From an uncultured Polaribacter sp. (GTDB taxonomy: Bacteria; Bacteroidota; Bacteroidia; Flavobacteriales; Flavobacteriaceae), in NCBI RefSeq assembly GCF_947500975.1, contig NZ_CANMUE010000008.1, positions 16,690-80,689 of the forward strand: 64,000 bases of DNA, read 5' to 3'. The position numbers and the translations under genes were made by a program. Below are positions 2,647 to 9,423 of this stretch, in pieces. How positions within the stretch are numbered: the stretch's first letter is position 1; the number at the start of each line of letters is the position of its first letter. The notes under the pieces are model-generated. The model was not told the DNA's origin. It did no database searches and worked only from the letters and a program-made list of their open reading frames with translations.

Positions 2647-5034
2647 ATGAAAATCACTACTTCTAATTCAGTTTTGGAAAAAGATTTTCCCCTACAATTA
2701 AATATTTCTTTTGAAAAAGTATTTTTGTTATTTAAAAAGTATACCCAACAAGAATATATTAAGCACCCTTTTTATGCTTCTGCCAAAGAAATGGTAAACC
2801 TTTTTGAAAAATATCCTGAATTAAATGAAGGCTTTTCTGACTATACATTGTTAGATAAATACAAAGAACAAATTGATTTATTTCTAGAACCTTTATTTCC
2901 AGAACCTTTACAATTAAATGAAATAAAAGCTGCAAGTATACCTTTTACTTTTACTTCTTTTAAATTTACAGATCGTTTTAAGAATATTATAAATAATGCT
3001 GGTGAAGATTATGAATTAGTAGTTAGAAATTTTGAAGACGATGGTATGTATATCATGGCATGTACATTTATTTTGGGCTTTGTTTATAATTATAAAGTTG
3101 ATATAAAAAGACCATTTTATTTTGATATACCTGATAAAACATCAGGAACAATGAAATATTACAGAGCTACATTTAATGCCGATTTTTCTGAAATTACACC
3201 CACAAAAGATGCTCCCAAAATATCACCAGAAGATATTAAAGAACTTTTAAATAATTTTAATAACATAGATTTATGGAGAGAAAAATTTCCTCCTAACAGT
3301 TATATTTTTAAAGGTTTTGGGCTAATAAATTTATTTGATGTTACTGCAGAAGAAATGATTTCATCAATAAAAGCCAACCTTTTAGCTGGTGGAGATCAAT
3401 TAATTTCAAATTTACAAAACAACTTAAGAGATTTTTACAGTCTAAAAAATTTAAAATTAGGTTTTTCCCTTTTTGATAAATCTAACTCTAAAATAAACGA
3501 AACTGTTGTAAAAAATTCTAACAGTTTAATCTTAAAAAGTACTGAAGAAATTAATTGTATCACCTCTTATTTTTGTAAAGGTATAATGCAAAAAGTTTTT
3601 ACAAATCATGAAACTTTTATTATTTCTGATGTAGAAGCTTATGGTTTAGCAACTAATAAAAATCCTTTTTATAAAAACCTACATCAAAATAGTATTCAGA
3701 GTATAATTCTAATTCCTATAGAAGCTAAACAAACGGGTGATTTAGCTTTATTAGAAATAGCATCAACAAAAGCTTATGATTTAAACTCAGTAAACATCAA
3801 TAAATTAAAAGATATTATTCCGGTTTTTGATGCCGCAGTAAAAAGAACATCAGAAGAGCATCATAACATTTTAGAAGCTACAATACAAGAAAATTACACC
3901 TCTATACATAGTGCTGTAAAATGGCGTTTTTATGATGCTGCAGAAAAATATCATACTGAGCATCAAACAAATGAAAACGCAAAGCTAGATGAAATTGTTT
4001 TTAAAAATGTATATCCTTTATATGGTCAAAGTGATATTAAAGGTTCTTCATATGCCAGAAATAATGCCATTCAAGAAGATTTAACCACCCAACTTTCTTT
4101 AGGAATTGATGTTTTAAAAGACGCTTGTAACTCAGAATCTTTACCAATTTACAACGAATTAATGTTTAGAGTTGCAACTTATTTAAAAGATGTAAAAAAA
4201 GGCTTGAATGCTGGTGATGAAATAAATATACTCGAATTTTTAACACGTGAAATTTATCCAGTTTTTAATCATATTAAAGACATCAATAGTGTACTTTCAA
4301 AGAAAGTAAACATTTACATGAGTCGTTTAGATAAAGATTTAGGTGTTGTTTATGAAAAACGAAAAGAGTATGAAAAAAGTGTTGATATTTTAAATGAAAA
4401 ATTAGCAAAATTTATAGATTCAAAGCAAAAAGATGCACAAAAAATGTATCCGCATTATTTTGAAAGATATAAAACTGATGGACTAGAATTTAATATGTAC
4501 ATAGGAGAATCTATTACAAGAGAAAATTCTTTTGACCTTATTTATCTGCAAAATTTACGATTATGGCAATTGCAAGTCATGTGCGAAATGGAAAACATAG
4601 CTTATTATGAGCGCAAGAACATGAAGCAAGAATTGCGTATTGCCTCTTTAATTTTAGTTCATAGTAATCCAATGGCTATAAAATTTAGAATGGATGAAAA
4701 GCAATTTGATGTTGATGGTGCTTATAATATTAGATATGAAATTATTAAGAAAAGAATTGATAAAGCAAACATAAAAGGTACTGAAGAGCGTTTAACTCAA
4801 CCTGGTAAAATTGCAATTGTATACTCTCAAGACAAAGATGCTTTAGAATATATTAAATATATTAATTTTTTACAATCTAAAAATCAATTAGGTAAATTAG
4901 AATTCTTACAACTAGAAGATTTACAAGGTGTTGCAGGTTTAAAAGCTTTACGTGTAGAACTTATTTATCATAAAGATTTTGATGAAAAAAATACGATTAC
5001 TTTTAATGATTTAATTAAAGAAATAGAAATTTAA
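2647..5034 (+). CDS. GAF domain-containing protein with a putative cryptic class III nucleotide-cyclase C-terminal domain (795 aa)
   Basis: Central GAF-like segment (IISDVE...QSIILIPI...LALLEIAS...LNSVNINKL); C-terminal motifs YGQSDIKGSS, FERYKTDGLEF, LRIASLILVH, FDVDGAYN, QPGKIAIVYS, LQGVAGLKALRV. Confidence 0.7.
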   Translation: MKITTSNSVLEKDFPLQLNISFEKVFLLFKKYTQQEYIKHPFYASAKEMVNLFEKYPELNEGFSDYTLLDKYKEQIDLFLEPLFPEPLQLNEIKAASIPFTFTSFKFTDRFKNIINNAGEDYELVVRNFEDDGMYIMACTFILGFVYNYKVDIKRPFYFDIPDKTSGTMKYYRATFNADFSEITPTKDAPKISPEDIKELLNNFNNIDLWREKFPPNSYIFKGFGLINLFDVTAEEMISSIKANLLAGGDQLISNLQNNLRDFYSLKNLKLGFSLFDKSNSKINETVVKNSNSLILKSTEEINCITSYFCKGIMQKVFTNHETFIISDVEAYGLATNKNPFYKNLHQNSIQSIILIPIEAKQTGDLALLEIASTKAYDLNSVNINKLKDIIPVFDAAVKRTSEEHHNILEATIQENYTSIHSAVKWRFYDAAEKYHTEHQTNENAKLDEIVFKNVYPLYGQSDIKGSSYARNNAIQEDLTTQLSLGIDVLKDACNSESLPIYNELMFRVATYLKDVKKGLNAGDEINILEFLTREIYPVFNHIKDINSVLSKKVNIYMSRLDKDLGVVYEKRKEYEKSVDILNEKLAKFIDSKQKDAQKMYPHYFERYKTDGLEFNMYIGESITRENSFDLIYLQNLRLWQLQVMCEMENIAYYERKNMKQELRIASLILVHSNPMAIKFRMDEKQFDVDGAYNIRYEIIKKRIDKANIKGTEERLTQPGKIAIVYSQDKDALEYIKYINFLQSKNQLGKLEFLQLEDLQGVAGLKALRVELIYHKDFDEKNTITFNDLIKEIEI

Positions 5035-6242
5035 ACTGTTGCTCCTATTTTTTCTTGAACTTTAAATGAAATTGCAAACGCAAAAACACTTAAAATAATA
5101 CCAATCATAAAAACAGTATACGTAATTCTTAGTATTTTATATTTTCTGTTTAAAACCAAACCTAAAAAGTATAAATCTTTAGTTAAAGAGCTATATAAAT
5201 AATCTCGGTCTTGCATCATTTCTGTAATACCCCATTCAAAATCATTTAATTTCATTTGATGAAAATTACCAAAAAACAATAAATTTACTTTTTTATTAGC
5301 TACATCTTCTTTAGTAAATTTACCTTCAGTAACATTAGGTCTGGTTGCTAAAATTGATAAAATAATAGATGTTACAGTAAAAACTACAAACACTAAAGTA
5401 GGCAATATTAAGTATTCATTAGACGGATTATCTAATTTTGGTAATAAATTAGATAAAGCCAAAGAAATTATAATTGCATTTACAGATAGTAAAATATTAG
5501 CTTTTGTATCTGCAATATTACTTAAAGTCATATGGTTTTTTAAAGCTACTCTAAACATAGTTTCAACCCCTCTTTCAGGAACATCACTTTTATTCTTTTT
5601 AAAATCTAAAGCCTCTTTCTTTTGATTAAAATTTGTAAAATCTTTTTTTAATTTCTTTTTCTTTTTTAATAAGGAGGCTAAATTTTTTTCTTTTCTTTTA
5701 CTCCAATTTTTTAAAGCATATTCAGCATAATACTGATGTTTTTGTGTTAAAAAGTTAATATTTTCATCCGTCCACTCTATTTCAGTAAAAAATTTACTTT
5801 CTGTAAGTTCCCATTCTCTTCTTAATAACTCTCCATATTCATCAAAATTTTTACTGCCAAGATGAGAGCAATCTGCGTCAGTAATGATCTCTTCTAGCTT
5901 GTTTTTTGGAATATAATCCATCTTTGTTGCTAAAATTAATTGAGTAATTGTTAGAATCCTATCATCAGAAATTGACATGTTTTTTAAAAAGTCTGTAGCA
6001 ATTTCAACACTTTTTTCTTCATGATTTTCTCTACCATTTACATAACCAGTGTCATGAAACCAGGCCGCTATAACTAAATTTTCAGCTTCAATATTAGACA
6101 GCTTTAAGTTTTCTATAAATTCTTCTACTTTAGCAACAACTCTTTGTGTATGAGCTAAATTATGATATACGTAATTAGAACTTAATTGTTCACTAAATAA
6201 ATTATAAATATATTTTTCTACTTCAGATGTTATTGCAGTCAT
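5031..6242 (-). CDS. HD-domain phosphohydrolase fused to a Pycsar-effector-like (PycTM/DUF5706) transmembrane domain
   Basis: YHNLAHT...WFHDTGY...DADCSHLG (HD motifs); C-terminal RGVETMFR...IADTKANILLSVNAII plus hydrophobic helices. Start moved to ATG 6242 (MTAITSEVE) because the TTG at 6263 lies inside a promoter-like element. Confidence 0.8.
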   Translation of the reverse strand: MTAITSEVEKYIYNLFSEQLSSNYVYHNLAHTQRVVAKVEEFIENLKLSNIEAENLVIAAWFHDTGYVNGRENHEEKSVEIATDFLKNMSISDDRILTITQLILATKMDYIPKNKLEEIITDADCSHLGSKNFDEYGELLRREWELTESKFFTEIEWTDENINFLTQKHQYYAEYALKNWSKRKEKNLASLLKKKKKLKKDFTNFNQKKEALDFKKNKSDVPERGVETMFRVALKNHMTLSNIADTKANILLSVNAIIISLALSNLLPKLDNPSNEYLILPTLVFVVFTVTSIILSILATRPNVTEGKFTKEDVANKKVNLLFFGNFHQMKLNDFEWGITEMMQDRDYLYSSLTKDLYFLGLVLNRKYKILRITYTVFMIGIILSVFAFAISFKVQEKIGATV

Positions 6243-6260
6243 TAAAAAGTCTATTTTAAA

Positions 6261-6268
6261 CAAAAATA
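6261..6268 (-). promoter_or_regulatory. Housekeeping -7 element for the HD-PycTM gene
   Basis: Minus-strand TATTTTTG (TAnnTTTG) about 19 bp upstream of ATG 6242. Confidence 0.5.
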
Positions 6269-6420
6269 AGGAATAAAAATTAGCTATTTGTATTCGTATT
6301 TTGTCGTAAATTTAAATATTGCTTTCAAAGAAGTTTCAACTATTAATCTATGTAAGTTTACAGTACATTTTCGACTAATATTTTGAGCATATTAAACTAA
6401 TTATAAAAGAAAGGAACATT

Positions 6421-6882
6421 ATGCTAACATGGAAAGAAGTGATTAAATTCACATCAACAGCAAACCCAACTCCAAATAAAAGAGTGGAAAAAACAGAAAA
6501 GGAGTGGAAAGCAATTTTAACTTCTGAGCAATTTAGAATCACCAGAAAAAAAGGAACTGAAAGACCACATACTGGTGATTTATGCAGTATTTACGATGAA
6601 GGGCAATACAATTGTATATGTTGTAATACACCTTTATTTGACTCAATTATTAAGTTCAATTCTAACTCTGGCTGGCCTAGTTTTACACAACCAATCAAAG
6701 AAAATGCTATTAAATATTATAAAGACACTTCTTTTGGCATGATTAGAGTTGAAGTTATGTGTAATACTTGTGATGCACATTTAGGACACGTTTTTCCTGA
6801 TGGACCAGAACCAAGTGGTTTGCGTTATTGTATTAATTCAGAATCAATGCAATTAAAGAAAGACGTTGATAAAAATGATTAA
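6421..6882 (+). CDS. msrB: Peptide-methionine (R)-S-oxide reductase MsrB
   Basis: CICC and CNTC zinc ligands, GWPSF, HLGHVF, RYCINS catalytic motif. Confidence 0.96.
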   Translation: MLTWKEVIKFTSTANPTPNKRVEKTEKEWKAILTSEQFRITRKKGTERPHTGDLCSIYDEGQYNCICCNTPLFDSIIKFNSNSGWPSFTQPIKENAIKYYKDTSFGMIRVEVMCNTCDAHLGHVFPDGPEPSGLRYCINSESMQLKKDVDKND

Positions 6883-7112
6883 ATTATTTGGTGCAAAAAG
6901 ATGTCATAAAACACAATTCTATAAAAATTTTTATCCCCCATAATTTAGATTACGCTTTTTTAGATGTGGAAAAAAACCTAAAATATGCAGAAGAATTACG
7001 TAATTTGTACTCCAATAAAAAATTAAATTTTTCAACAATTGCAATTCACCATAAAAAGTTAAGAAACCCTTCTGAAAAAGAGCTTCAAAAATGGATAGAT
7101 AAAACATTATGA
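6875..7112 (+). pseudogene. Frameshifted glutaredoxin-like gene
   Basis: ATG 6875 overlaps the end of msrB and reads MIKLFGAKRCHKTQFYKNFYPP* (stop 6941-6943). The +1 frame continues HNLDYAFLDVEKN...NFSTI...LRNPSEKELQKW to TGA 7112, which overlaps the selO ATG. Confidence 0.65.
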
Positions 7113-8665
7113 AACTAAATATAAAAGAAACTTTTTGTGAAAAATTACCTGCTGACCCAATACTTGAAAACTCAAGAAGACAGGTTAAAAGTGCTGTTTT
7201 TTCTTATGTAAATCCTAAGAAAACAAAAGATCCAAAAGTAATTCACATTTCTAATGAAATGGCTTTAGAATTAGGAATTTCGGAAGAAGAAACACAATCT
7301 GATTTTTTTAAAAATGTGTTTACAGGAAATAAAATTTATCCTAATACAAAACCATTTGCAATGTGTTATGGAGGGCATCAATTTGGAAATTGGGCTGGGC
7401 AATTAGGTGATGGAAGAGCCATTAATTTATTTGAAGTTGAACACAAAAATAAAAATTGGAAAGTACAATTAAAAGGTGCAGGAGAAACTCCATATTCTAG
7501 AACTGCAGATGGTTTGGCCGTTTTACGTTCTTCAATTCGCGAATATTTATGTAGCGAAGCTATGTTCTATTTAGGCGTTCCAACAACTCGTGCCTTATCT
7601 TTAAGCTTAAGTGGAGATAATGTTTTAAGAGATATTTTATATGATGGAAACCCAGCATATGAAAAAGGCGCAATTGTATCAAGAATTTCTCCATCATTTT
7701 TACGTTTTGGAAATTACGAAATTTTTTCAGCAAGAAATGATGTAAAAAACTTAAAAGTATTGGTTGATTATACAATAAAACATCATTTTTCGCATTTAGA
7801 AAATTCTTCCAAAAAAACCTATCTAAAGTTTTTTAATGAAGTTTCTGAACGCACTTTAGAAATGATTATTCATTGGCAAAGAGTGGGTTTTGTACATGGA
7901 GTTATGAATACAGATAACATGTCTATCCTTGGTTTAACCATCGATTATGGACCTTATGGTTGGTTAGAAGATTTTGATTATAGCTGGACGCCAAACACAA
8001 CAGACAGACAACATAAAAGGTATCGTTTTGGAAATCAGCCAAATATTGGCTTATGGAATTTATACAAATTAGCAAATGCCTTGTATCCATTAATTGAAGA
8101 AGTAGAACCTTTAGAAGCAATTTTAGATCAATATAAAATTGACTTTCAAAAAAAATCTTTCTTGATGATGAAATCTAAATTAGGCTTGTTTGAAGAAGTT
8201 AAAAATGATTTGGAATTAATTCAAAATTTAGAAGATAATTTACAACTGGTAGAAACTGATATGACAATTTTCTTTAGAAATTTAAGTAATTTTAAAGGTG
8301 ATAAAATAGGATTTGAAATTATTAAAAAAGCTTTTTATGATGTTAAGAATATTTCTGAACAAGTAAAAATTCAATGGAATATATGGTTTAAAAATTACGC
8401 TGATAGATTACAAAAAGAATCTCTTAATCATCAACAAAGAAAAGAAAAAATGGATGCTGTAAACCCTAAATATGTGTTAAGAAATTATATGGCACAATTA
8501 GCAATTGATGCTGCAAATGAAGGTGATTATTCTTTAATTAATCAACTATTTCAGCTCTTAAAAAAACCTTATGATGAGCAACCTAAAAATGAAAAATGGT
8601 TTACAAAACGTCCTGATTGGGCTAAACACAAAGTAGGTTGTTCTATGCTAAGTTGTAGTTCTTAA
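7109..8665 (+). CDS. selO: Protein adenylyltransferase SelO (YdiU)
   Basis: [55 protein letters not shown]; C-terminal CSMLSCSS ends at TAA, so a Cys rather than Sec form. Confidence 0.96.
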
Positions 8666-9423
8666 TGGGTATTTTAAAATACATATTAGAGATTCCTGAA
8701 AGGCATTCATTTGGAATCTACAAAAACAAAAAATATAGTATTACCAAAGAGATTTTTAACAATGGTAAATCGTTTAAAATCTTTGCAAAAGAATTAAAAG
8801 GAAATAATTTTATCAGTTTAAATTATTATATCACATCAAAAAATGAATTTTTAAAACCTTGTGAAATGCCACAAGAAAAAGTAATTCACTTTTTAAAAAA
8901 CGTACAATTAAATAAAACAACAACAATGGGTACAAGTAAAAAAGCATATATAGCAGGTGGATGTTTTTGGGGAATGGAAGATCTTTTTAGAACAAGAGAA
9001 GGAATTTTAGATACAGAAGTGGGTTATATTGGTGGAGAAAATGATAATCCTACCTATAAAAATCATCCAGGTCATGCCGAAGGAATTGAAATTACATATG
9101 ATGCTAACAAAACTTCTTTCAAAGAAATTTTAGATTACTTTTTCAGAATCCATAATCCTACAACTATTGATAGGCAAGGAAACGATATTGGAACAAGTTA
9201 CAGATCTGCAATATTTTTTCAAAATGATGATGAAAAAGCAGAGGCAAAAGAAGTAATTAACCTTGTAAATGAATCTCATAAATGGGAAGGTAAAGTTGCC
9301 ACAACTTTAGAACCTTATTCTACTTTTTGGGCAGCAGAGCCAGAACATCAAGATTATTTAGTAAGAAACCCAAATGGTTATACTTGTCATTTTGAGCGAT
9401 TTAAAAATAGCTTTTTAAAATAA
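8665..9423 (+). CDS. msrA: Peptide-methionine (S)-S-oxide reductase MsrA with an in-frame 87-aa N-terminal domain
   Basis: [33 protein letters not shown]; the MsrA core begins at internal ATG 8926; the preceding segment carries LKPCEMP. Confidence 0.9.

What the first reader, a model, noticed from the sequence alone, without database searches (positions are those of the whole stretch)
4021..4956. Cryptic class III nucleotide-cyclase signature in the C-terminal half of the GAF protein
Seen, in canonical order: YGQSD463IKGSS (compare beta1 F-x-D-I-x-G-F/S-T; the Ser ending recalls PycC-type D-x-x-G-S); FERYKTD611GLEFNMYIG (compare K-x-I-G-D-x-x-M, second metal Asp); LRIASLILVH (compare LRIGIH); FDVDGAYN...KRIDK (compare D-x-x-G-D-T-V-N-x-A-x-R-x-E); LTQPGKIAIVYS (compare A-x-P-G-x-I-x-x-S); LQGVAGLKALRV (compare V-K-G-K...V-x-V-Y). 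The two Asp residues are 148 aa apart rather than about 44, which implies a helical insertion of roughly 100 aa. Such an insertion could explain why profile annotation would report only GAF. The match was made by eye.
Basis: partly seen in the sequence, partly recalled or inferred. Interest (0 to 1): 0.75.

Follow-up and report, generated by a model that had tools for sequence, protein, structure and literature searches.

The report
Hidden cyclase fold in GAF protein
The unannotated C-terminal half of a 795-residue Polaribacter "GAF domain" protein folds like a class III nucleotide cyclase interrupted by a ~135-residue helical insert, keeps invariant candidate catalytic residues, and its gene sits next to a Pycsar-effector-like membrane protein across the Flavobacteriaceae, which suggests an undescribed cyclic-nucleotide circuit that has not been tested biochemically.

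Summary
By sequence the match is not above chance. Pfam, NCBIfam, PADLOC, PDB sequence and profile searches and hhalign against 20 real cyclase domains find nothing, with or without the proposed insert. A template-free AlphaFold2 model of aa 420-795 (pLDDT 95.6) has class III cyclases as its top 41 PDB matches (Cya2, CyaC, sGC, AC9, PycC; TM 0.45-0.57 over the whole ~195-aa domain), with no GGDEF. D463 ends strand β1 and D611 sits at the β2-β3 hairpin turn. Both are invariant in 175 homologues, as are S467, D478, G691, K701, R703, D705, K706, R715, G764 and R769. Helices 467-600 form the insert. The gene is single-copy and found in 48 of 61 sampled genera of the family. An HD-PycTM gene lies next to it in 66 of 77 loci, 4 of them co-directional. 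Catalysis, product, dimer geometry and the Asp-Asp distance were not testable. This scan found the same family before in another Polaribacter genome (e1-5270781), with the same conclusion.

The parts
2647..5034 (+). Whole gene: a 795-aa cytoplasmic sensor-enzyme made of an N-terminal α/β domain, a GAF domain, linker helices and a divergent class III cyclase-fold domain.
   Evidence: ORF listing. AlphaFold2 full-length model with pLDDT 93.7 and pTM 0.82. More than 7951 homologues, single-copy, about 790-810 aa.
2647..3351 (+). N-terminal α/β domain (aa ~1-235) of unassigned function. Together with the GAF domain it superposes loosely on PAS-GAF bidomains of phytochromes.
   Evidence: Secondary structure. 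Full-length Foldseek hits 8r45, 9f4i and 6tc7 (PAS-GAF, TMt ~0.37-0.38). No Pfam hit.
3364..3861 (+). GAF domain (aa ~240-405).
   Evidence: Family profile against PDB sequences: 3p01 at E=1.5e-5, 3o5y at 1e-3, and fRMsr-type GAFs such as 3ksf at 4.5e-3. Foldseek GAF hits 6oza, 1f5m and 3w2z with TMt 0.57-0.62. The local Pfam GAF models do not reach threshold on the single sequence.
3817..3969 (+). Linker helices (aa 391-416 and 425-441) joining GAF to the catalytic domain. They contain the invariant W426 and F428 and the nearly invariant T418 and H421.
   Evidence: DSSP of the models. Conservation. Their role as a signal-transducing helix is inferred by analogy with sensor-cyclases such as 6fht and 6jt0.
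3997..4038 (+). Strand β1 of the cyclase fold (aa 451-464), ending in the invariant D463 (codon 4033-4035), followed by G466-S467-S468 at the N-cap of helix α1. D463 is the candidate first metal-binding Asp and the G-S-S stretch the candidate phosphate-binding turn.
   Evidence: DSSP E451-464 and H467 onward. D463 and S467 are 175/175 and S468 is 168/175. The only local hhalign match pairs DIKG (463-466) with the DFKG of a real cyclase, but it is not significant.
4045..4446 (+). Five-helix insertion (aa 467-600) between β1/α1 and β2. It is absent from canonical class III domains and holds the invariant D478 and the nearly invariant R471, N472, E525, Y557, Y569, R572, N583 and Q598.
   Evidence: Helices 467-497, 500-518, 524-546, 548-560 and 571-600 at pLDDT 95-98. 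Asp-Asp spacing is 148 here against 43-44 in real cyclases. Conservation.
4456..4503 (+). β2-β3 hairpin (aa 604-619) with T610-D611-G612 at the turn (D611 codon 4477-4479). D611 is the candidate second metal-binding Asp. A K/R sits four residues before it.
   Evidence: DSSP E604-609 and E612-619. D611 and G612 are 175/175, T610 is 168/175, and position 607 is K or R in 158/175.
4537..4962 (+). Remainder of the cyclase core (aa 631-772): helix 631-656, strands 665-671, 676-681 and 686-689, helix α4 693-706, strand 721-726, helix 729-744 and strands 748-756 and 766-772. It carries the invariant G691, K701, R703, D705, K706, R715, G764 and R769.
   Evidence: DSSP. Foldseek aligns 200-217 columns over whole ~195-aa cyclase domains. 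Conservation.
4723..4764 (+). Helix α4 (aa 693-706, YNIRYEIIKKRIDK), the candidate transition-state and phosphate-binding helix. It holds N694, R696, E698, K701, K702, R703, D705 and K706.
   Evidence: N694 is 169/175, R696 172/175, and K701, R703, D705 and K706 are 175/175. The helix position corresponds to the G-D-T-V-N-x-A-x-R-x-E helix of real cyclases by order of secondary-structure elements only, and the spacing differs from the canonical N-x-x-x-R.
5031..6263 (-). Convergent partner gene encoding an HD phosphohydrolase domain fused to a PycTM (Pycsar effector) membrane domain. The likely start is the ATG at 6242. Its stop codon interlocks with that of the GAF-cyclase gene in TTAA at 5031-5034.
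   Evidence: Pfam PycTM PF18967 at E=2.2e-37 and HD at E=2.2e-5. PADLOC PycTM at 4.6e-17 and CBASS 2TM effector models. Adjacent in 66 of 77 loci. HD metal residues are conserved at 97% or more. Junction sequence.

Best explanation
The protein is a cytoplasmic sensor-enzyme. An N-terminal α/β domain and a GAF domain sense a small ligand and pass the signal through linker helices to a highly divergent class III (cyclase-homology) catalytic domain at aa ~445-775. In this domain β1 ends in D463, a five-helix bundle (467-600) is inserted after α1, and the β2-β3 hairpin carries D611 at its turn. By analogy with class III cyclases, the two Asp would hold two Mg2+/Mn2+ ions, the G-S-S turn and the basic residues (R471, R696, K701, R703, K706, R715, R769) would bind the triphosphate, and a homodimer would convert an NTP into a 3',5'-cyclic NMP. 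In the Flavobacteriaceae the product would act on, or be degraded by, the adjacent membrane HD-PycTM protein. The fold, the invariance of the candidate catalytic residues, the insertion, the GAF domain and the conserved gene pairing are shown here. Metal binding, dimerisation, the cyclase reaction, the identity of the nucleotide and the functional link to HD-PycTM are inferred.
For: The model of aa 420-795 has pLDDT 95.6 and pTM 0.90 and was built without templates. Its top 41 PDB matches are all class III cyclases (2w01 Cya2 TMt 0.56 over 217 columns, 1wc1 CyaC 0.57, sGC 3uvj and 2wz1, AC9 6r4p and 7pdd, PycC 8jsz 0.45). Generic ferredoxin-like folds follow only at TMt 0.24-0.28 and probability 0.25 or less, and no GGDEF or polymerase palm appears. 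The full-length model best matches sensor-cyclase proteins 6fht and 6jt0. D463, S467, D478, D611, G612, G691, K701, R703, D705, K706, R715, G764 and R769 are 175/175 in homologues down to ~30% identity. D463 and D611 sit at the end of β1 and at the β2-β3 turn. The GAF domain is confirmed. An HD-PycTM gene is adjacent in 62 convergent and 4 co-directional loci out of 77, while other neighbours are not conserved. PycTM is the cNMP-activated effector of Pycsar, whose cyclase PycC is class III-like (PMC11224242).
Against: There is no sequence-level similarity to PF00211 or to a 20-member cyclase profile. The canonical N-x-x-x-R pair and the R of RIGIH are not reproduced. The extra invariant basic cluster K701-K702-R703-x-D705-K706 is not a class III feature and could mean a different substrate or product. 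Most gene pairs are convergent and so not co-transcribed, the four co-directional cases are close relatives (68-70% identical to the query) and may reflect one event, and outside the Flavobacteriaceae the gene has no HD-PycTM neighbour.
Confidence: 0.6

Rival explanations
1. The domain has the cyclase/palm fold but carries out different chemistry. It would be a nucleotidyltransferase or a synthase of another nucleotide signal (a linear or cyclic di- or oligonucleotide, or a modified nucleotide), or an NTP-binding regulatory pseudo-enzyme.
For: There is no sequence similarity to any cyclase family. The α4 residue spacing is non-canonical and there is an additional invariant KKRxDK cluster plus R715 and R769. 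A large conserved helical insert holding the invariant D478 and R471 could form a second binding site.
Against: All top structural matches are mononucleotide cyclases, not GGDEF, Cas10 or polymerase palms. The two invariant Asp are at the positions used for two-metal catalysis in cyclases. The conserved neighbour is of a type known to respond to cyclic mononucleotides (PMC11224242).
Confidence: 0.25
2. The gene pair is an anti-phage defence system. It would be a Pycsar variant with a GAF-regulated cyclase and an HD-PycTM abortive-infection effector, not a physiological signalling circuit.
For: The neighbour matches the PycTM and CBASS 2TM effector models of PADLOC and Pfam PF18967. A cyclase next to a TM effector is the Pycsar layout (PMC11224242).
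Against: The gene is single-copy and found in 48 of 61 sampled genera of the family at a conserved locus. Its similarity to the query falls off gradually from Polaribacter to other genera. There is no match in 50,697 phage records, and the only plasmid matches are in two large non-mobilisable replicons. PADLOC has no model for the cyclase protein. Most pairs are convergent, not operonic.
Confidence: 0.1
3. The resemblance is spurious. The model converges on a generic ferredoxin-like βαββαβ arrangement, and the domain is unrelated to cyclases in origin and function.
For: Foldseek E-values are modest (4e-4 to 1e-2) and TM-scores are 0.45-0.57. Profile-profile comparison is null.
Against: Forty-one consecutive top hits come from one family and cover the entire target domain, including the C-terminal β7-β8 part. 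Other ferredoxin-like folds score far lower. The model confidence is very high. The invariant Asp residues fall exactly where that family needs them.
Confidence: 0.05

Closest known systems
Class III nucleotide cyclase homology domain (Pfam PF00211 Guanylate_cyc; e.g. Cya2 2W01, CyaC 1WC0-1WC6, soluble guanylate cyclase 3UVJ, AC9 6R4P)
   Same: The overall fold and the order of secondary-structure elements match. There is an invariant Asp at the end of β1 followed by a small G-S-S turn, an invariant Asp at the β2-β3 hairpin turn, and conserved Asn and Arg in the helix after β5. The domain is fused C-terminally to a sensor (GAF) through long helices, as in 6FHT and sGC.
   Different: There is no detectable sequence similarity. 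A ~135-aa five-helix insert lies between α1 and β2, so the two Asp are 148 residues apart and not 43-44. The spacing is N-x-R and not N-x-x-x-R, there is no conserved RIGIH Arg, and there is an extra invariant KKRxDK cluster. Activity is untested.
Pycsar (PycC pyrimidine cyclase plus PycTM or PycTIR effector)
   Same: A cyclase-fold protein is encoded next to a protein with a PycTM domain. The PycC structure 8JSZ is among the structural matches (rank 36).
   Different: The pair looks like a conserved chromosomal core locus, not a sporadic or mobile one. Genes are mostly convergent. The cyclase carries N-terminal sensor domains and a helical insert. The effector carries an N-terminal HD phosphohydrolase domain. 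PycC is not the closest structural relative.
GAF-regulated adenylyl cyclases (cyanobacterial CyaB1/CyaB2 type) and engineered phytochrome-cyclases (6FHT)
   Same: The architecture is sensor (PAS-like/GAF), then helical linker, then C-terminal class III catalytic domain. 6FHT is the top full-length structural match.
   Different: Those enzymes have canonical PF00211 domains recognisable by sequence. Here the catalytic domain is unrecognisable by sequence and contains the insert. The comparison with CyaB1/CyaB2 rests on my own knowledge and was not tested here.
DUF2652 cyclase-like proteins of Bacteroidetes, Actinobacteria and Proteobacteria (PMC4886424)
   Same: This is another case of a cryptic class III cyclase-like family in Bacteroidetes predicted computationally.
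   Different: DUF2652 proteins are about 180-385 aa, mostly single-domain, and are detectable as cyclase relatives by profile methods. The present protein has no DUF2652 hit at E<=10 and a different architecture.
GGDEF diguanylate cyclases
   Same: They share a related palm-like core, with a metal-binding acidic residue at the β2-β3 hairpin.
   Different: No GGDEF structure is among the top 50 matches of the C-terminal model, there is no Pfam GGDEF hit, and the C-terminal β-strand subdomain matches class III cyclases.

Membership tests
Class III nucleotide cyclase (cyclase homology domain) | Cyclase-homology fold: a β1-α1-α2-β2-β3-α3-β4 core plus a β5-α4-β6-α5-β7-β8 extension | tested here: met
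   The aa 420-795 model (pLDDT 95.6) has class III cyclases as its top 41 PDB hits. About 200-217 columns align over ~195-aa targets, with TMt 0.45-0.57.
Class III nucleotide cyclase (cyclase homology domain) | Sequence membership: a match to PF00211 or to a profile of real class III domains | tested here: not met
   hmmscan found no hit at E<=10. A six-frame PF00211 search of the own genome gave 0 matches. hhalign probability is 0.1-0.2%, no better than reversed nulls, while controls reach 99%.
Class III nucleotide cyclase (cyclase homology domain) | Two conserved metal-binding Asp, one at the C-terminal end of β1 and one at the β2-β3 hairpin | tested here: met
   D463 lies at the end of strand 451-464 and D611 between strands 604-609 and 612-619. 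Both are 175/175 conserved. Their spatial proximity could not be measured because no coordinates are exposed.
Class III nucleotide cyclase (cyclase homology domain) | Transition-state-stabilising Asn and Arg in helix α4 (N-x-x-x-R) | tested here: inconclusive
   N694 (169/175) and R696 (172/175) lie in helix 693-706, but the spacing is N-x-R. Position N+4 is E698. K701 and R703 are invariant further along the helix.
Class III nucleotide cyclase (cyclase homology domain) | Substrate-specifying pair (Lys/Asp for ATP, Glu/Cys or similar for GTP) | tested here: inconclusive
   Aligning by secondary-structure elements only, position 607 (four residues before D611) is K or R in 158/175, and D688 (three residues before G691) is D in 160/175. 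This would be AC-like, but no residue-level structural alignment was available.
Class III nucleotide cyclase (cyclase homology domain) | Head-to-tail dimer with active sites at the interface | not testable with these tools
Class III nucleotide cyclase (cyclase homology domain) | Conversion of an NTP to a 3',5'-cNMP plus pyrophosphate | not testable with these tools
   This needs a biochemical assay.
Pycsar anti-phage system | Effector with a PycTM (or TIR) domain encoded next to the cyclase | tested here: met
   PF18967 at E=2.2e-37 and PADLOC PycTM at 4.6e-17. The effector gene is adjacent in 66 of 77 loci.
Pycsar anti-phage system | Cyclase recognisable as PycC (a compact class III-like pyrimidine cyclase) | tested here: not met
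   PADLOC has no match for the protein. PycC 8jsz ranks only 36th among structural matches at E=0.04. The protein is 795 aa with sensor domains.
Pycsar anti-phage system | Sporadic, horizontally mobile distribution typical of defence systems | tested here: not met
   The gene is found in 48 of 61 sampled genera, single-copy, at a conserved locus. There is no phage match, and the only plasmid matches are two large non-mobilisable replicons.
Pycsar anti-phage system | Protection against phage by abortive infection | not testable with these tools
   This needs phage challenge experiments.
GGDEF diguanylate cyclase | GGDEF fold and signature detectable by profile or structure | tested here: not met
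   There is no Pfam hit and no GGDEF structure in the top 50 Foldseek matches.
DUF2652 cyclase-like family (PMC4886424) | Match to the DUF2652 profile; short, mostly single-domain protein | tested here: not met
   There is no Pfam hit at E<=10. The architecture and length differ.

The most novel reading that the evidence does not exclude
The Flavobacteriaceae carry a conserved chromosomal cyclic-nucleotide circuit related to Pycsar. A ligand-sensing GAF protein with a sequence-unrecognisable class III cyclase domain makes a cyclic mononucleotide, possibly a pyrimidine one. That nucleotide gates a membrane PycTM domain and is hydrolysed by the HD domain fused to it. This would be a housekeeping relative, or an evolutionary source, of an anti-phage system, and a new large family of nucleotide cyclases.
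Probability: 0.3. Interest if true: 0.8.

Novelty: new variant of a known kind. Interest (0 to 1): 0.65.

Why it matters
If the domain is an active cyclase, thousands of proteins currently labelled only "GAF domain-containing" or "hypothetical" would gain a function. These include a gene found in most sampled genera of the marine Flavobacteriaceae and in other Bacteroidota families. The class III cyclase superfamily would gain a branch that sequence methods cannot see, with a large helical insert of unknown regulatory role. The conserved pairing with an HD-PycTM membrane protein would connect a module known only from abortive-infection phage defence with ordinary physiology. That bears on the open question of where defence signalling modules come from. 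It would also give a tractable entry point, for example in Flavobacterium johnsoniae, into cyclic-nucleotide signalling in Bacteroidota, which as far as I know is little studied.

Tried and rejected
- Family and sequence searches: Pfam, NCBIfam and PADLOC scans of the protein and of its C-terminal half gave no meaningful hit. A PDB sequence search with the single protein gave nothing. With the family profile it found only GAF domains.
- Profile-profile comparison: hhalign against a cyclase alignment built here from 20 relatives' PF00211 domains gave nothing above reversed nulls.
- Alternative Asp: one alternative local alignment paired GLEFNMYIGE with GLEKIKTIGD, which would put E621 in the metal position. 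I rejected it because it is not significant, position 621 is not conserved, and it conflicts with the hairpin in the model.
- PEP carboxylase: I briefly considered a by-eye resemblance to PEP carboxylase motifs (TAxHP, YGxSD). I dropped it because the motif order does not fit and no such fold was returned.
- PF27174: this is the precomputed Pfam label on all homologues. It is not in the local library or in the literature index, so I could not learn its name. It may already catalogue this domain.
- Literature: searches for PycTM with HD, and for DUF5706, found nothing. The DUF2652 paper concerns another family.
- Other searches: the viral structure library gave nothing significant. The promoter and terminator scan was at chance level.
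Full report
**Observation.** The finding lies in a 795-codon ORF at 2647..5034 (+). Residues 463 and 611 are Asp, 148 residues apart. The upstream gene is der/EngA. The convergent downstream gene (5031..6263, -) encodes an HD domain fused to a PycTM (Pycsar effector) membrane domain, and it is followed by msrB, selO and msrA.

**Is the sequence match more than chance?** By sequence, no.
- Pfam and NCBIfam give no hit for the protein or its C-terminal half, not even GAF. PADLOC gives none either.
- A PDB sequence search gives nothing with the single protein. With a profile of 136 family members it finds only GAF domains at about aa 240-405 (3p01, E=1.5e-5).
- A six-frame PF00211 search finds no match anywhere in the window's own genome. 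In relatives it matches only other loci.
- I built a genuine class III cyclase alignment from 20 of those matches and compared it with the family profile by hhalign. Reversed-sequence nulls scored 0.4-4.9%, and cyclase subgroups recognised each other at 98.9-99.6%.
- Only the first motif is individually rare. D[ILVF].G[FSY][ST] occurs in 0.9% of shuffles of the protein and in 13 of 20 real cyclases.

**Structure.**
- A template-free AlphaFold2 model of the whole protein, built on the 136-sequence alignment, has pLDDT 93.7 and pTM 0.82. A model of aa 420-795 alone has pLDDT 95.6 and pTM 0.90.
- The C-terminal half reads as follows: strand 451-464 ending at D463; helices 467-497, 500-518, 524-546, 548-560 and 571-600; hairpin 604-609/612-619 with T610-D611-G612 at the turn; helix 631-656; strands 665-671, 676-681 and 686-689; helix 693-706; strand 721-726; helix 729-744; strands 748-756 and 766-772.
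- Foldseek of the C-terminal model against the PDB returns class III nucleotide cyclases as all of the top 41 hits. Examples are AC9 6r4p, Cya2 2w01 (TMt 0.56, 217 columns), CyaC 1wc1 (0.57), soluble guanylate cyclase, AC5 and the Pycsar uridylate cyclase 8jsz (0.45).
- Unrelated ferredoxin-like folds follow only at TMt 0.24-0.28 with probability 0.25 or less. No GGDEF or polymerase palm appears in the top 50.
- The full-length model best matches sensor-cyclase proteins: phytochrome-cyclase 6fht and soluble guanylate cyclase 6jt0.
- The viral structure library gives nothing significant.

**Conservation.**
- In 136 representatives of 50%-identity clusters (29-62% identical to the query), the invariant residues are G223, W426, F428, D463, S467, D478, P602, D611, G612, W640, G691, K701, R703, D705, K706, R715, G764 and R769.
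- Adding 39 genome loci gives 175 sequences, and the C-terminal invariants that were re-checked (W640 was not) remain 175/175. R471 is 174/175, R696 is 172/175 and N694 is 169/175.
- The canonical N-x-x-x-R spacing is not reproduced; it is N694-x-R696 here. The Arg of the RIGIH motif is not conserved.
- An invariant K701-K702-R703-x-D705-K706 cluster has no class III counterpart.
- Aligning by secondary-structure elements only, a K/R sits four residues before D611 (158/175) and D688 sits three residues before G691 (160/175). This would resemble the Lys/Asp pair of adenylyl cyclases, but it is inference and not a measured superposition.

**Distribution and context.**
- The family is large: more than 7951 proteins at 90% clustering, and 1112 clusters at 50% identity.
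- It is named "GAF domain-containing protein" or "hypothetical protein", and the closest relatives are Polaribacter.
- It is single-copy, about 790-810 aa, and found in 48 of 61 sampled genera of the same family and in 30 of 201 sampled genomes of the phylum.
- It has no match in 50,697 phage records. The only plasmid matches are in two large non-mobilisable replicons, Chondrinema and Haliovirga, the latter a member of the Fusobacteriota.
- Of 80 genome loci fetched with flanks, 77 have enough downstream sequence to judge. Of these, 62 have the HD-PycTM gene convergent and adjacent, 4 have it co-directional immediately downstream (a 6-nt gap in L047 and L049), 2 have it within 4 kb, and 9 lack it. 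Eight of those 9 are non-Flavobacteriaceae.
- Der, msrB, selO and msrA are not conserved neighbours.
- Outside the Flavobacteriaceae the flanking genes are unrelated to one another.
- In the partner protein, the HD metal residues (H34, H38, H70-D71, D129, D131, H134) are at least 97% conserved in 63 sequences. The PycTM half is the most conserved part, with mean column identity 0.72-0.82 against 0.52-0.63 for the HD half and the Lys-rich linker.
- The two genes end in interlocking stop codons, TTAA at 5031-5034, with no intergenic terminator.

**Interpretation.**
- Shown: the fold, the insertion, the invariant acidic and basic residues at the expected topological positions, the GAF domain and the conserved pairing.
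- Inferred: two-metal catalysis by D463 and D611, triphosphate binding by the G-S-S turn and the basic residues, dimerisation, cyclisation of an NTP, and a functional link with HD-PycTM.
- In Pycsar, a class III-like cyclase (PycC) makes cCMP or cUMP, which activates PycTM (PMC11224242).
- Here the pair looks like a conserved chromosomal core locus and not a mobile one, so a physiological signalling role is more likely than defence.
- I put the fold assignment at about 0.9, an active nucleotide cyclase at about 0.6, and the full circuit with HD-PycTM at about 0.3.

**Comparison with what is known.**
- The domain works like, and folds like, a class III cyclase. It fails the sequence-membership test for PF00211 and differs by the ~135-aa insert and the altered α4 motif.
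- It is not DUF2652, the previously predicted cyclase-like family of Bacteroidetes (PMC4886424).
- It is not GGDEF or PycC.
- All homologues carry a precomputed Pfam label, PF27174, that is absent from the local library and from the literature index. The domain may therefore already be catalogued under a name I could not retrieve.
- I found no paper describing the family or the HD-PycTM pairing.

**Earlier notes of this scan.**
- The same family was flagged on another Polaribacter genome (e1-5270781), and a follow-up agent reached the same fold-level conclusion.
- Several first readers in other genomes noted the unassigned C-terminal half.
- The pair and the HD-PycTM protein in this window were also noted (e1-5279919, e1-5279921).
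- My conclusions rest on the tests run here.

**Limits.**
- No model coordinates are exposed, so the D463-D611 distance was not measured.
- No multimer modelling was available.
- The genome search closed and the look-up of sequencing runs. This prevented a genome-wide co-occurrence test and an expression check.

Noticed in passing
window 5031-6263 (-): The HD phosphohydrolase and PycTM fusion protein is conserved next to the GAF-cyclase gene. HD metal residues are at least 97% conserved in 63 orthologues, and the membrane (PycTM) half is more conserved than the HD half. I found no paper on an HD-PycTM fusion.
   Followed up: partly
window 5031-5034: The two convergent genes end in interlocking stop codons (TTAA: TAA on the + strand at 5032-5034 and TAA on the - strand at 5031-5033). 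There is no intergenic space and no terminator-like hairpin. Another reader noted the same arrangement in a different genome (e1-3880001).
   Followed up: yes
window 6421-9423 (+); GAF domain at 3364-3861: The genes msrB, selO and msrA follow the pair. msrB is near the pair in 15 of the 80 loci. The GAF domain's solved relatives include free methionine-R-sulfoxide reductase-type GAF proteins (3ksf, 3mmh, 1f5m). This hints that the sensor might respond to oxidised methionine or to redox stress, but no conserved Cys was seen among the near-invariant residues.
   Followed up: partly
all homologues listed: Every homologue carries the precomputed Pfam accession PF27174.1. This accession is missing from the local Pfam copy and from the searchable literature. 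C-terminal fragments of about 450 aa also carry it, so it probably models the C-terminal region.
   Followed up: partly
L113 (Haliovirga abyssi pHIC, 297 kb), locus 5798-8119: A full-length family member (43% identical in the C-terminal half) occurs in a Fusobacteriota replicon. It is flanked by IS3 and Rpn transposase genes and followed by dihydrofolate reductase, which suggests horizontal transfer out of the Bacteroidota.
   Followed up: no
L041, L046, L047, L049 (Aureibaculum and related MAGs): In these four loci the HD-PycTM gene is co-directional and starts a few bases after the GAF-cyclase stop codon (about 6-10 nt in three of them), which is an operon-like layout. It may be a single inversion event in one clade.
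   Followed up: partly
relatives' genomes, (e.g. L032, G037:C1:213639-214172): Many Flavobacteriaceae genomes carry ORFs of about 360-385 aa with weak PF00211 matches (E between 1e-7 and 1e-12). These may be the DUF2652-type cyclase-like proteins described in PMC4886424. The window's own genome has no PF00211 match at all.
   Followed up: no
window 2647-3351 (+): The N-terminal ~235 residues form a confident α/β domain (pLDDT above 90) with no family assignment. Together with the GAF domain it aligns loosely with the PAS-GAF bidomains of phytochromes.
   Followed up: no
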